From NCBI RefSeq assembly GCF_009914755.1, contig NC_060925.1: a DNA stretch of 64,000 nucleotides. One strand, written 5' to 3'. Under the pieces are notes generated by a model. That model saw nothing but the letters and a program-made list of their open reading frames with translations, ran no database searches and was not told the DNA's origin. This stretch comes from the human T2T-CHM13v2.0 reference genome, Homo sapiens. Made by a program: the position numbers and the translations under genes. Below are positions 54,728 through 59,107 of the stretch, in pieces. The first letter of the stretch is position 1. The number at the start of each line of letters is the position of its first letter.

Positions 54728-54871
54728 TAACATACTTATGACAAAAAGTCACCACAGACCTACCACTCAGCTATCCATGATTCTTATTTTGATGTATTCT
54801 CTTCTGAATTTTCTTTCTATAATGAACATCTGGTACTTCTGATCTTTAAGACTATAAAAAGTTTAACTATC

Positions 54872-57800
54872 AGAGTCCAGAATCAAGATGGCCGAATAGG
54901 AGCAGCTCCGATCTGCATCTCCCAGCGTGATCAATGCAGAAGACGGTGATTTCTGCATTTCCAACAGAGGTACTGGGTTCATCTCATTAGGACTGGTTCA
55001 CCTGGGAAGCACAAGGGGTCAGGGAATTCCCTTTCCTAGCCAAGGGAAGCCGTGACAGATGGTACCTGGGAAATCGGGACACTCCCACCCTAATACTGCG
55101 CTTTTCCAACAGTCTTAGCAAACGGCACACCAGGAGATTATATCCTGCAGCTGGCTCGGCGGGTCCCCCACCCATGGAGCTTTGCTCACTGCTATAACAG
55201 CAGTCCAAGATGGAACTGCGAAGGTGGCAGTGAAGCTGGGGGAGGGGCGTCTGCCATTCCTGAGGCTTGACTAGGTAAACAAAGCAGCCAGGAAGCTCGA
55301 ACCGAGTGGAGCCCACCACAGCTCAAGGAGGCCTGCCTGCCTCTGTAAACTGCACCTCTGGCGGCAGGGCATAGCTGAACAAAAGGCAGCGGAAACTTCT
55401 GCAGACTTAAACGTCCCTGTCTGACAGCTTTGAAAAGAGTAGTGGTTCTTCCAGCATGGAGTTTGAGATCTGAGAATGGACAGACTGCCTCCTCAAGTGG
55501 GTCCCTGACCCCCAAGTAGCCTAACTGGGAGACACCTCCCAGTCGAGGCCGACTGACACCTCATACAGGTGGGTGCCCTTCTGGGACAAAGCTTCTAGAG
55601 GAAGGATCAGGCAGCAACATTTGCTGTTCTGCAATATTTGCTGTTCTACAGCCTCCGCTGGTGATACCCAGGCAAACAGGGTCTGGAGTGGACCTCCAGC
55701 AAACTCCAACAGACCTGCAGCTGAGGGTCCTGACTATTAGAAGGAAAACTAACAGAAAGGAATAGCATCAACATCAACAAAAAGGACATCCACACCAAAA
55801 CCCCATATGTAGGTCAGCATCATCAAAAACCAAAGGTAGATAAAACCACAAAGATGGGGAGAAACCAGAACAGAAAAGCTGAAAATTCTCAAAACCAGAG
55901 TGCCTCTTCTCCTCCAAAGGATCGCAGCTCCTCACCAGCAATGGAACAAAGCTGCACGGAGAATGACTTAGACAAGTGACAGAAGTAAGCTTCAGAAGAT
56001 CGGTAATAACAAACTTCTCTGAGGTAAAGGATGATGTTTGAACCCATCACAAAGAAGCTAAAAACCCTGAATTCTACCAGAGATACAAAGATGAGCTGGT
56101 ACTATTCCTTCTGAAACTATTCCAATCATTAGAAAAAGAGGGAACCTCCCTAACTCATTTTATGAGGCCAGCATCAGCCTGATACCAAGACATAACAAAA
56201 AAAGAGAATTTTAGACCAATATCCCTGATGAACATCGATGCAAAAATCCTCAATAAAATACTGGCAAACAGAATCCAGTAGCACATCAAAAAGCTTATCC
56301 ACCATGATCAAGTTGGCTTCATCCCTGGGATGCAAGGCTGGTTCAACATACACAAATCAATAAACGTAATCCATCATATAAACAGAACCAAAGACAAAAA
56401 CCACGACTATCTCAACAGACGCAGAAAAGGCCTTCGACAAATTTCAACAGCCCTTCATGCTAAAAACTCTCAATATACTAGGTATTGATGGGACATATCT
56501 CAAAATAATAAGAGCTATTTATGACAAACCCACAGCCAATATCATACTGAATGGGCAAAAACTGGAAGCATTCCCTTTGAAAACTGGCACAAGACATGAA
56601 TGCCCTCTCTCACCACTCCTATTCAACATAGTGTTGGAAGTTCTGGCCAAGGCAATCAGGCAGGAGAAAAAAATAAAGTGTATTCAATTAGGAGGAAGTC
56701 AAATTGTCCCTGTTTGCAGATGACATGATTGTATATTTAGAAAACCCCATTGTCTCAGCCCAAAATCTCCTTAAGGTGATAAGCTACTTCAGCAAAGTCT
56801 CAAGATACAAAATCAATGTGCAAAAATCACAAGCATTCCTATACACCAATAACAGACAAACACAGAGCCAAATCATGAGTGAACTCCCATTCACAATTGC
56901 TTCAAAGAGAATAAAATACCCAGGAATCCAACTTACAAGGGATGTGAAGGACCTCTTCAAGGAGAACTACAAACCACTGCTCAATGAAATAAAAGAGGAC
57001 ACAAACAAATGAAAGAACATTCCATGCTCATGGATAGGAAGAATCAATATCGCAAAAATGGCCATACTGCCCAAGGTAATTTATAGATTTAATGCCATCC
57101 CCATCAAGCTACCAATGACTTTCTTCACAGAATTGGAAAAAACTATTTTAAAGTTCATATGGAACCAAAAAAGAGCCTGCATTGCCAAGACAATCCTAAG
57201 CCAAAAGAACACAGCTGGAGGCATCATGCTACCTGACTTCAAACTATACTACAAGGCTACAGTAACCAAAACAGCATGGTACTGGTACCAAAACAGAGAT
57301 ATAGAACAATGGAACAGAACGGAGCCCTCAGAAATAATACCACACATCTACAACCATCTGATCTTTGACAAACCTGAGAAAAACAAGAAATGAGGAAAGG
57401 ATTCCCTATTTAATAAATGGTGCTGGGAAAACTGGCTAGCCATATGTAGAAAGCTGAAACTGGATCCCTTCCTTACACCTTATACAAAAATTAATTCAAG
57501 ATGGATTAAAGACTTAAATGTTAGACCTAAAACCATAAAAACCCTAGAAGAAAACCTAGGCAATACCATTCAGGACACAGGCATGGGCAAGGACTTCATG
57601 ACTAAAACACCAAAAGCAATGGCAACAAAAGCCAAAATAGACAAATGGGATCTAAGTAAACTAAAGAGCTTCTGCACAGCAAAAGAAACTACCATCAGAG
57701 TGAACAGGCAACCTACAGAATGGGAGAAAATTTTTGTAATCTACCCATCTGACAGAGGGTTAATATCCAGAATCTACAATGAACTTAAACAAATTTACAA

Positions 57801-58657
57801 GAAAAAACAAACAACCCCATCAACAAGTGGGCAAAGGATATGAACAGACACTTCTCAAAAAAAGACATTTATGCAGCCAAAAGACACATGAAAAAATGCT
57901 CATCATCACTGGCCATCAGAGAAATGCAAATCAAACCCACAATGAGATACCATCTCACACCAGTTAGAATGGCAATCATTAAAAAGTCAGGAAACAACAG
58001 GTGCTGGAGATGATGTGGAGAAATAGGAACACTTTTACACTGTTGGTGGGACTGTAAACTAGTTCAACCATTGTGGAAGACAGTGTGGCGATTCCTCAAA
58101 TATCTAGAACTAGAAATACCATTTGACCCAGCCATCCCATTACTGGGTATATACTCAAAGGATTATAAATCATGCTACTATAAAGACACATGCACACGTA
58201 TGTTTATTGCAGCACTATTCACAAGAGCAAAGACTTGGAACCAACCCAAATGCCCATCAATGATAGACTGGATTAAGAAAATGTGGCACATATATACCAT
58301 GGAATACTATGCAGCCATTAAAAAGGATGAGTTCATGTCCTTTGCAGGGACATGGATGAAGCTGGAAACCATCATTCTGAGCAAACTATCACAAGGACAG
58401 AAAACCAAACACTGCATGTTCTCATTCATAGGTGGGAATTGAACAATGAGATCACTTGGACACAGGGTGGGGAACATCACACACCGGGGCCGTAGGGGGT
58501 GGGGGGCTGGGGGAGGGATAGCATTAGGAGAAATACCTAATGTAAATGGTGAGTTGATGGGTGCAGCAAACCAACATGGCACTTGTATACCTATGTATCA
58601 AACCTGCACATTGTGTACATGTACCCTAGAACTTAAGTATAAAAAAAAAAAAAAAAA
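54872..58657 (+). mobile_element. L1PA (about PA5-PA7) retaining 5'UTR and 3'UTR, with a large ORF1-ORF2 deletion; inactive
   Basis: caagatggccgaatagg 5' end; ORF1 ATG at 55854; ORF2 RT and C-terminal peptides in the ORF track ([29 protein letters not shown]) with stops and frameshifts; poly(A) 58641-58657. Confidence 0.95.
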
Positions 58658-58745
58658 GGAGGCAGGATTATCACTTGTTCCTCGCAGCTCTGGACTCCCA
58701 GGAAGAGGCAGCCTGGTCAGATTCTGGGAAACAAAAGAAACCTTT

Positions 58746-58818
58746 TGTTTCCGTCAAGTTTCAAACAGAGGACCTTCCGTGTGTTAGGCCAGCGTGGTAA
58801 CTACTACACCACAGAAAC
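58746..58818 (-). pseudogene. tRNA-Val(AAC) pseudogene
   Basis: - strand reads GTTTCTGTGGTGTAGTAGTTACCACGCTGGCCTAACACACGGAAGGTCCTCTGTTTGAAACTTGACGGAAACA; 73 nt, 14 mismatches to recalled tRNA-Val-AAC; anticodon 58783-58785; B box degraded. Confidence 0.9.
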
Positions 58819-59107
58819 CCTTTGCATTGCAGGCTTTTTATGTTTTGCGATGAGTATTAAATACTTGTTTTTACAATTTTTTTTAGTTGACAAATAAAAA
58901 TTGTATATATTTATGATGTAAAAAAAAAGTTTAACTCTCTTTTTTTTAAAGGGAACATCTACAAATCTATGAAATCTTCCCAATTAAAGTAACGATACTT
59001 AAAACCCTATCTGAAAACAAATCTGAAAAAGAAAGGTAGACTTGAGAATCATCAAAATAAAGAATAAAAAGGAAACAAGTAAACCACATGGTTTAAAAAG
59101 AAAGAAA

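What the first reader, a model, noticed from the sequence alone, without database searches (positions are those of the whole stretch)
54856..58939. L1 3' transduction carrying a tRNA-Val(AAC) gene into ALDH9A1 intron 2
Seen: the L1's left TSD aaaaagtttaactatc (54856-54871) does not recur after the L1 poly(A) (58641-58657). It recurs ~265 nt later as aaaaagtttaactctc (58924-58939, 15/16 identical). The enclosed extra segment has its own AATAAA (58893-58898) 22 nt before a second A run, and contains a full-length antisense tRNA-Val(AAC) (58746-58818). The tRNA has no CCA or A tail of its own, and has unique flanks and a downstream T-run (tttctttt), as a genomic tRNA gene would. Established: two poly(A) tracts inside one TSD is the signature of L1 3' transduction. 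Inference: a source L1 lying ~90 bp from a tRNA-Val locus read through it and moved the Pol III gene with its flanks, a route of tRNA-gene dispersal distinct from retroposition of mature tRNA. The tRNA is now degenerate (14/73 mismatches, broken B box), possibly already so at the source.
Basis: partly seen in the sequence, partly recalled or inferred. Interest (0 to 1): 0.85.

Follow-up and report, generated by a model that had tools for sequence, protein, structure and literature searches.

The report
L1 insertion carrying chr6 tRNA-pseudogene tag
An old L1 jumping gene in an ALDH9A1 intron dragged along about 260 bases copied from the chromosome 6 tRNA gene cluster, including an already dead tRNA-Val copy; this is an ordinary example of a well-known process.

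Summary

The 262-bp tag (58658-58919) has three other full-length matches in this genome. All are on chr6: an inverted pair at 26.57 and 26.67 Mb (99.99% identical) and a copy at 57.68 Mb (97.9%). They lie in a tRNA cluster, with tRNA-Met and tRNA-Ala genes 4-8 kb away. Those loci run on as shared sequence on both sides. The chr1 copy stops at a poly(A) after a polyadenylation signal and starts where chr6 reads TTTT|AAAAGAGG, an L1-endonuclease-like site. So the tag is an RNA-mediated copy of the chr6 locus, best explained as L1 3' transduction.

No source L1 survives. None sits at the junction in any paralog, none lies sense-strand within about 40 kb upstream, and there is no fourth copy or sibling insertion.

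The tRNA was a pseudogene before the move: 13 of its 14 differences from real Val-AAC genes are shared with the chr6 copies, and ARAGORN and Rfam do not call it. No live Pol III gene was dispersed.

This is a known mechanism and of low interest. Template switching or spliced read-through remain minor rivals.

The parts
54856..54871 (+). Left target-site duplication, AAAAAGTTTAACTATC. It is preceded by T, so the target reads ..TAT/AAAAAG, which resembles an L1 endonuclease site.
54872..58640 (+). L1 body of primate L1PA type. The subfamily was not determined because no repeat library was available. The 5' end is present. It is colinear with the first ~1.2 kb of other L1s up to 56071, then jumps to the last ~2.6 kb (ORF2 reverse-transcriptase domain to 3' UTR). 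This implies an internal deletion of roughly 2.2 kb relative to a ~6-kb element; that full length is established knowledge, not a call.
   Evidence: RVT_1 matches at 56382-57012 with E 1.3e-10 and 7e-8.
58641..58657 (+). Internal A17 tract, the L1's own poly(A). Under the transduction reading it is copied from the source element's genomic A tail.
   Evidence: Homology to other L1 copies ends here.
58658..58919 (+). Tag: a 262-bp non-L1 segment copied from the chr6 tRNA-cluster locus. It is 88-89% identical to the chr6 copies; K2P distance is 0.095-0.104.
58746..58818 (-). tRNA-Val(AAC)-derived pseudogene. The anticodon loop CTAACAC is kept, but there are 14 of 73 differences from real genes, and the anticodon stem and B-box region are broken.
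58862..58919 (+). 3' part of the tag, which is itself repeat-derived. At chr6 it runs straight into an older antisense L1, and this stretch alone matches many chromosomes.
   Evidence: 36 of 40 scored matches cover only tag positions 205-266..
58893..58898 (+). AATAAA polyadenylation signal, 21 nt before the terminal A run. The chr6 copies read AATACA (57.68 Mb) or AGTACA (26.57 and 26.67 Mb) at this position.
58920..58928 (+). Terminal A run of 9 A. It overlaps the first 5 A of the right target-site duplication, so the tail proper is 4-9 A.
   Evidence: The chr6 copies continue CAACATGATG here instead.
58924..58939 (+). Right target-site duplication, AAAAAGTTTAACTCTC (15 of 16 identical to the left copy).

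Best explanation
This is a single L1 retrotransposition event with a 3' transduction.

Inferred history: tens of millions of years ago an L1 sat, sense strand, at the site TTTT|AAAAGAGGCGGG in the chr6p tRNA cluster, 88 bp from a decayed tRNA-Val(AAC) pseudogene on the opposite strand. Its transcript ran past the L1's own weak polyadenylation signal, through the pseudogene, and into the antisense tail of an older L1. It was cleaved about 21 nt after an AATAAA or AATACA signal.

That one RNA (L1, A tract, 262-nt flank, poly(A)) was reverse-transcribed by target-primed reverse transcription at TAT/AAAAAG in ALDH9A1 intron 2. This produced a single 16-bp target-site duplication around the whole insert.

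The source L1 allele was never fixed, or was lost, so only the empty parent site survives. That site has since been copied into three chr6 paralogs.

Shown: the anatomy in the window, the parent locus, the RNA-copy direction, and the pre-existing decay of the tRNA. Inferred: the existence and position of the source L1, and the age. The carried tRNA-like stretch is inert cargo.
For: (1) One target-site duplication encloses L1 plus tag. The match is 15 of 16, the only 2 matches in the window, against 0.13 expected.

(2) L1 homology ends at the A17 tract in 39 of 39 non-self scored matches. The next 262 bp are unique sequence.

(3) The tag's unique first 203 nt match 4 of 4 places in the genome: the window itself and three chr6 loci.

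(4) At chr6 the sequence continues on both sides as sequence shared by the three paralogs. The window copy ends in an A run placed 21 nt after AATAAA. The window copy is therefore the retrocopy and chr6 the parent.

(5) Homology starts exactly where chr6 reads CTTTCTTTT|AAAAGAGGCGGG. TTTT/AAAA is the L1 endonuclease target (established knowledge). Under this reading the tag begins with what would be the source element's 3' target-site duplication, as the review PMC4859970 describes for transductions (passages read).

(6) Two A tracts and a polyadenylation signal 10-30 bp before the end are the usual hallmarks. In PMC13009371, about 25% of insertions carry a transduction and 274 of 349 endpoints have such a signal (abstract and passages).

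(7) The parent lies in a tRNA cluster: tRNA-Met(CAT) and tRNA-Ala(AGC) genes occur in each paralog.

(8) The three chr6 copies are 97.9-99.99% identical to each other over about 20 kb. The tag is about 10% diverged from all three. The copy to chr1 therefore predates the chr6 duplications, and there was one parent site at that time.
Against: No source L1 exists in this assembly. The three chr6 paralogs have unique GC-rich sequence, not an L1 3' end, directly upstream of the tag homology. No sense-strand L1 similar to the window's L1 lies within about 9.8 kb upstream of the 57.68-Mb copy or about 39.8 kb upstream of the 26.67-Mb copy.

The 251 bp upstream of the parent site occur only at the three chr6 loci (3 of 3). 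There is therefore no fourth, L1-bearing paralog. No sibling insertion shares the tag.

The junction needs one change: the window has A17-GGAGGC where chr6 has AAAAGAGGC.

The chr6 copies carry AATACA or AGTACA rather than AATAAA, so the strength of the signal at the source is unknown.

Joint absence of L1 and tag in outgroup primates could not be checked, because no other primate genome is available here.
Confidence: 0.76

Rival explanations
1. Chimeric retrocopy made by reverse-transcriptase template switching. L1 reverse transcriptase primed on a separate polyadenylated transcript from the chr6 locus and copied 262 nt. It then jumped, using the AAAA/TTTT microhomology, onto the poly(A) tail of an L1 RNA and copied that to its 5' end. 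No source L1 next to the chr6 locus is needed.
For: No source L1 is found at or near any chr6 paralog. The junction lies at an AAAA run that could pair with an L1 poly(A) tail. L1 chimeras formed by template switching are documented (10.1101/2025.02.02.635956, passages read).
Against: In the passages read, the chimeras described have the other RNA at the 5' side of a LINE-1 ('3'-LINE-1 chimeras'). The order here is the reverse: L1 with its 5' end at the 5' side, and the unique segment at the 3' side. This rival needs the donor RNA to end, or the enzyme to jump, exactly at a TTTT|AAAA site; the TTTT half is explained by an endonuclease target but not by microhomology. Transduction is far more common: about a quarter of insertions (PMC13009371 abstract).
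Confidence: 0.12
2. Spliced read-through. The source L1 lay much further upstream, and its read-through transcript was spliced from a donor just after its A tail (A-tail-GG|GT...) to an acceptor at ctttcttttaaaag|AGGCGGG. The tag would then be a terminal exon rather than the immediate flank.
For: The chr6 sequence before the junction has a pyrimidine tract followed by AG. Joining '...AAAGG' to 'AGGCGGG' reproduces the window's AAAGGAGGC without needing a substitution. It would also explain why no L1 abuts the parent site.
Against: No sense-strand L1 lies within about 39.8 kb upstream of the 26.67-Mb paralog. The acceptor is weak by eye, with an A run between the pyrimidine tract and the AG. 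A single A-to-G change at about 10% divergence explains the junction equally well. No transcript evidence could be consulted here.
Confidence: 0.06
3. Two independent events. A short retrocopy of the chr6 transcript inserted first and made the 16-bp duplication. An L1 later landed exactly between the left duplication and the retrocopy's 5' end.
For: Nothing specific. It would remove the need for a source L1 at chr6.
Against: The L1 has no target-site duplication of its own. Its left flank ...GTTTAACTATC and the sequence after its A17 tract, GGAGGCAGGATTATC, do not repeat. The second insertion would have had to hit one exact phosphodiester bond.
Confidence: 0.03
4. Chance resemblance. The second 16-mer is not a target-site duplication, and the tag was resident intron sequence before the L1 arrived.
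For: The 16-mer is A/T-rich.
Against: Only 2 matches with up to 2 mismatches occur in 128 kb of searched strand, against 0.13 expected. The second copy lies directly after an A run that follows AATAAA. The tag is a truncated, polyadenylated copy of a chr6 locus, not resident unique sequence.
Confidence: 0.01

Closest known systems
L1 3' transduction. Primary papers by Moran 1999, Pickeral 2000, Goodier 2000 and Szak 2003 are recalled and were not read here. Described in the review PMC4859970 (passages read).
   Same: The L1 with its own A tract is followed by unique non-L1 sequence that ends in a second A tract after a polyadenylation signal, all within one target-site duplication. The tag maps to a single parent locus elsewhere in the genome.
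   Different: No source L1 remains at the parent locus. The cargo happens to include an antisense tRNA pseudogene and a piece of an older antisense L1. The L1 itself has a ~2.2-kb internal deletion.
Proxy or orphaned transduction families whose source L1 is absent from the reference (PMC13009371 discussion passage)
   Same: The transduced tag is present in the genome while the true source element is not in the assembly.
   Different: Those cases are recent human polymorphic sources. Here the event is old (tag about 10% diverged from its parent), so the source is presumably extinct rather than merely non-reference.
tRNA/LINE-1 chimeric insertions (bioRxiv 10.1101/2025.02.02.635956, passages read)
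   Same: A tRNA-related sequence, antisense to an L1, lies inside one target-site duplication.
   Different: Those 21 loci carry roughly half-length tRNA pieces, fused to the 5' side of the LINE-1, and are ascribed to twin priming. Here a 73-nt tRNA-like stretch sits in the middle of 262 bp of genomic flank on the 3' side, and that flank is colinear with a chr6 locus.
Retroposed tRNA copies and tRNA-derived SINEs
   Same: tRNA-like sequence is dispersed by L1 machinery.
   Different: No CCA or A tail is attached to the tRNA part. It is flanked on both sides by its genomic neighbours from chr6, so a Pol II read-through RNA was copied, not a Pol III transcript.

Membership tests
L1 3' transduction | An L1 3' end with its own A tract, followed by non-L1 sequence that ends in a second A tract | tested here: met
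   A17 lies at 58641-58657. L1 homology ends there in 39 of 39 non-self scored matches. The second A run is at 58920-58928.
L1 3' transduction | One target-site duplication flanks L1 plus extra sequence, with none around the L1 alone | tested here: met
   A 15 of 16 match at 54856-54871 and 58924-58939, the only 2 matches in the window. No repeat is seen directly after the A17 tract.
L1 3' transduction | A polyadenylation signal 10-30 nt upstream of the second A tract | tested here: met
   AATAAA lies at 58893-58898, 21 nt before the A run.
L1 3' transduction | The extra sequence is a truncated copy of a unique locus elsewhere, which continues past both ends of the tag | tested here: met
   Three chr6 loci match at 88-89% identity over the full tag. 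Their flanks are shared among the chr6 copies but absent from the window.
L1 3' transduction | Corroborating, not defining: a source L1, same strand, abuts the 5' end of the parent segment | tested here: not met
   There is no L1 at the junction in any of the 3 paralogs. None lies sense-strand within about 9.8 kb or about 39.8 kb upstream. There is no fourth copy. The parent junction reads TTTT|AAAA, like an unoccupied L1 endonuclease target.
L1 3' transduction | L1 and tag are jointly present or absent across species, with a single copy of the 16-mer at the empty site | not testable with these tools
   No other primate genome is held. states that the genome has no relatives here.
Functional tRNA-Val(AAC) gene | A cloverleaf recognised by tRNA finders or a covariance model | tested here: not met
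   ARAGORN finds 0 genes in 54000-60000 and 0 in the chr6 copies. There is no Rfam tRNA match at E up to 10. ARAGORN does of 8 real Val-AAC loci.
Functional tRNA-Val(AAC) gene | Intact internal Pol III promoter (A and B boxes) | tested here: not met
   Alignment to real genes shows that tRNA positions 52, 56 and 62 differ in the B-box region (GGTTCGAAACC in real genes, TGTTTGAAACT here) and that positions 9 and 17 differ in the A-box region. Box names and positions are established knowledge, not from a call.
Functional tRNA-Val(AAC) gene | Anticodon loop with AAC | tested here: met
   CTAACAC is invariant in all 8 aligned sequences.
tRNA/LINE-1 chimera (template switch or twin priming) | A tRNA-derived piece without genomic flanks, joined directly to the 5' side of a LINE-1 | tested here: not met
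   The tRNA-like stretch has 88 bp and 101 bp of chr6-colinear flank on its two sides and lies 3' of the L1.

The most novel reading that the evidence does not exclude
The tag may not have been joined by simple read-through from an adjacent source L1. It could have been joined by splicing of a distant L1 read-through transcript into a terminal exon in the tRNA cluster, or by reverse-transcriptase template switching from a chr6 transcript onto an L1 poly(A) tail. Either route would make this an unusual 'L1 with 5' end at the 5' side, cellular RNA at the 3' side' chimera that mimics a transduction. It would also explain why no source L1 exists at the parent site.
Probability: 0.18. Interest if true: 0.35.

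Novelty: new member of a known kind. Interest (0 to 1): 0.15.

Why it matters
It matters little beyond annotation. It documents one more fixed L1 3' transduction and pins its parent to the chr6p tRNA cluster.

Two small points may be useful. First, the chr1 copy is a dated snapshot of the chr6 pseudogene. It keeps the canonical base at four tRNA positions (7, 40, 53 and 64) that all chr6 copies have since lost, so it can serve as an outgroup for the history of that duplicated part of the cluster. Second, it shows that tRNA-like hits next to L1 3' ends can be passive cargo, not retroposed tRNAs or new Pol III genes. It gives no evidence that transduction spreads working tRNA genes.

Tried and rejected
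(1) Looked for the source L1.
- I compared the window L1 with 20 kb around each of two chr6 paralogs.
- I did the same with 50 kb (26632501-26682500) around the 26.67-Mb paralog.
- Only one older antisense L1 downstream was found (68.75-69.1% identity), and no sense-strand L1.

(2) Looked for sibling insertions or a fourth paralog.
- The unique 203 nt of the tag gave 4 of 4 matches: the window itself plus the three chr6 loci.
- The 251 nt upstream of the chr6 parent gave 3 of 3 matches, all chr6.
- Nothing further was found.

(3) Tested the tRNA-like stretch as a live tRNA gene. ARAGORN and Rfam do not call it, so this was rejected.

(4) Searched with the 86-nt tRNA-like stretch. It found only the same 4 loci and no real Val genes. 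Real genes were therefore found with a 20-mer pattern at up to 2 mismatches. That gave 17 matches against 5 for the reversed control. I passed 8 of the 17 loci to ARAGORN, those sharing one recurrent variant, and all 8 are tRNA-Val(AAC). Four of the 8 went into the alignment.

(5) Earlier findings of this scan were not open.

(6) Literature.
- Three searches found no paper on a tRNA gene or pseudogene carried by an L1 3' transduction. One search gave 0 papers. One search gave 13 papers, of which 12 were listed; none is on this by title. One search gave 8 papers, of which 7 were listed; all are unrelated by title.
- Szak 2003 and Pickeral 2000 are not held and were not read. Their supplementary lists of transductions could include this locus.

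(7) The L1 subfamily name and a firm age were not obtained, because no repeat library is available.
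Full report
**Observation**

- The left 16-mer AAAAAGTTTAACTATC is at 54856-54871, and the near-copy AAAAAGTTTAACTCTC is at 58924-58939.
- The L1 A17 tract is at 58641-58657, AATAAA at 58893-58898, and a second A run at 58920-58928.
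- With up to 2 mismatches the 16-mer occurs only at these two places in the window, on either strand. The expected count is 0.13, and 1 of 100 shuffles reached two matches.
- By inference, the chance of one such match on the right strand within about 300 bp after the L1 tail is of the order of 3 in 10,000.

**What the L1 is**

- Other genomic L1 copies begin to match at 54884 (40 of 5968 candidates scored).
- In 39 of 39 non-self scored matches, the match ends at 58642-58660, inside the A17 tract (40 of 4267 candidates scored; 92-95% identity).
- ORF fragments at 56382-57012 match the reverse-transcriptase family RVT_1.
- The element is colinear with the first ~1.2 kb of three other L1s up to 56071, where homology stops while those copies continue.
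- The remaining 2.6 kb is the 3' part of ORF2 and the 3' UTR.
- Against a full length of about 6 kb (established knowledge), about 2.2 kb is missing internally.
- I could not name the subfamily.

**The tag and its parent**

The 266 bases 58658-58923 have three further full-length matches in the window's own genome: C6:57684833-57685101 (89%), C6:26672333-26672601 (88%) and C6:26565809-26566077 (88%, opposite strand). This comes, where 40 of 102 candidates were scored.

The other 36 scored matches cover only tag positions 205-266. At chr6 that part runs directly into an older antisense L1, so it is repeat-derived.

The unique first 203 nt match only the window and these three loci (4 of 4).

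The alignment shows the direction of copying.
- The three chr6 loci continue on both sides with sequence they share with each other but not with the window.
- The window copy begins directly after the L1 A17 tract. It ends in an A run, where chr6 reads CAACATGATG.
- The window segment is therefore a polyadenylated retrocopy of a chr6 transcript.

**The parent region**

- Each chr6 paralog carries a tRNA-Met(CAT) gene and a tRNA-Ala(AGC) gene, roughly 4 and 8 kb from the tag homolog.
- The two loci at 26.57 and 26.67 Mb are an inverted pair, 99.99% identical over 19.9 kb.
- The 57.68-Mb locus is 97.9% identical to them over about 20 kb.
- The tag differs from all three by K2P 0.095-0.104 (23-25 substitutions in 260 aligned sites). 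Within the same stretch the chr6 copies differ from each other by 0-1.5%.
- The copy to chr1 therefore predates the chr6 duplications, and there was then one parent site.
- About 5% divergence per lineage suggests an age of some tens of millions of years. This rests on an assumed neutral rate and is not a measurement.

**The junction**

Homology begins where chr6 reads GATCTTTCTTTT|AAAAGAGGCGGG. The window reads A17-GGAGGCAGG.

TTTT/AAAA is the preferred L1 endonuclease target (established knowledge). A sense-strand L1 inserted there would have its A tail abutting AAAAGAGGC. A read-through transcript would then start its non-L1 part with that element's 3' target-site duplication. The review PMC4859970 describes exactly this for 3' transductions (passages).

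The other hallmarks are also present: two A tracts, one target-site duplication, and a polyadenylation signal 21 nt before the end. In a recent long-read study, about 25% of insertions carried a transduction, and 274 of 349 endpoints had a signal in the 10-30 bp window (PMC13009371, abstract and passages).

**What is missing**

No source L1 was found.
- The sequence directly upstream of the parent site is GC-rich unique DNA in all three paralogs.
- No sense-strand L1 resembling the window's L1 lies within about 9.8 kb upstream at 57.68 Mb or about 39.8 kb upstream at 26.67 Mb.
- The 251 bp upstream of the parent site occur only at the three chr6 loci (3 of 3), so no fourth, L1-bearing paralog exists in this assembly.
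- No sibling insertion shares the tag.

The simplest reading is that the source L1 was an unfixed allele that was lost. This is an inference.

**Rivals**

- Template switching of the reverse transcriptase, from a chr6 transcript onto an L1 poly(A) tail, would give the same product without a source L1. However, the chimeras described in the passages read (10.1101/2025.02.02.635956) place the foreign RNA 5' of a LINE-1, which is the reverse order. This rival also does not explain the TTTT half of the junction.
- Spliced read-through is possible. The chr6 junction has a pyrimidine tract followed by AG, and splicing would reproduce AAAGGAGGC exactly. No upstream L1 or transcript evidence supports it.
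- Two independent insertions, and chance, are contradicted.

**The tRNA**

- I found real tRNA-Val(AAC) genes with a 20-mer from the window at up to 2 mismatches. This gave 17 matches, against 5 for the reversed control.
- I gave 8 of the 17 loci to ARAGORN, those sharing one recurrent variant, and all 8 were called tRNA-Val(AAC). Four of the 8 were aligned.
- The window copy differs from them at 14 of 73 positions, and the chr6 copies at 18 of 73.
- 13 of the window's 14 differences are shared in the same state with the chr6 copies. These include transversions and non-CpG changes, so they arose before the copy was made.
- No difference is private to the window alone. The 14th site differs from canonical in both copies but in different states. 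The chr6 copies have four further changes, at positions 7, 40, 53 and 64.
- The B-box region reads TGTTTGAAACT, against GGTTCGAAACC in real genes. The box name and position are recalled.
- ARAGORN and Rfam do not recognise the window copy or the chr6 copies.
- The TTTCTTTT run downstream of the tRNA-like stretch is absent from the chr6 copies, so it is not evidence of a terminator at the source.

The cargo was therefore a dead pseudogene. The event does not show dispersal of a working Pol III gene.

**Comparison with what is known, and novelty**

This meets the structural definition of an L1 3' transduction, a well-known and frequent process. The specific locus was not found in print. Three searches found no paper on a tRNA gene or pseudogene carried by an L1 3' transduction. 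The classic transduction catalogues could not be read and might list this locus. It is a new member of a known kind.

**Verdict**

The transduction reading is supported at about 0.76, with the source L1 inferred rather than seen. The claim of tRNA-gene dispersal is not supported. Interest is low.

Noticed in passing
L013-L016 (G000:C6:26556001-26576000 and 26662501-26682500); L017-L018 (C6:57675001-57695000): A large inverted duplication in the chr6p tRNA cluster. The two arms are 99.99% identical over at least 19.9 kb and about 106 kb apart. A third copy at 57.68 Mb is 97.9% identical. Each arm carries tRNA-Met(CAT) and tRNA-Ala(AGC) genes. The full extent of the arms was not mapped.
   Followed up: partly
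L002:1250-1500 (C6:57684582-57684832) and its two paralogs: The 251 bp directly upstream of the tag's parent site are 100% identical in all three chr6 paralogs, although the 57.68-Mb copy is about 2% diverged overall. About 5 differences would be expected. This could reflect constraint, gene conversion or chance; it was not examined.
   Followed up: no
L002:~1060-1140: By eye only, about 400 bp upstream of the Val-like stretch there is another decayed tRNA-like sequence on the same strand as the Val pseudogene. Neither ARAGORN nor Rfam at E up to 1 calls it.
   Followed up: no
window 56071/56072: Internal breakpoint of the L1. The first ~1.2 kb (5' UTR and start of ORF1) is joined directly to the last ~2.6 kb, which begins just before the reverse-transcriptase domain. 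Whether the deletion was already in the RNA or arose after insertion is unknown.
   Followed up: partly
window ~54986-54998: The L1 5' UTR lacks about 70-80 bp that many other copies have. Their matches split at query positions 207-219 of 54780-55180, with extra bases on the subject side.
   Followed up: no
window 58746-58818 versus the chr6 copies: The chr1 retrocopy keeps the canonical base at four tRNA positions (7, 40, 53, 64) that all three chr6 parent copies have lost. The copy is therefore closer to the ancestral tRNA than its parents are.
   Followed up: yes
window 59088-59421: By eye, an Alu-like element starts about 150 bp downstream of the right target-site duplication (GGCTGGGCACAGTGGCTCACGCCTGTAATCCCAGC...). 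It coincides with a masked stretch in the hub's table and is unrelated to the finding.
   Followed up: no
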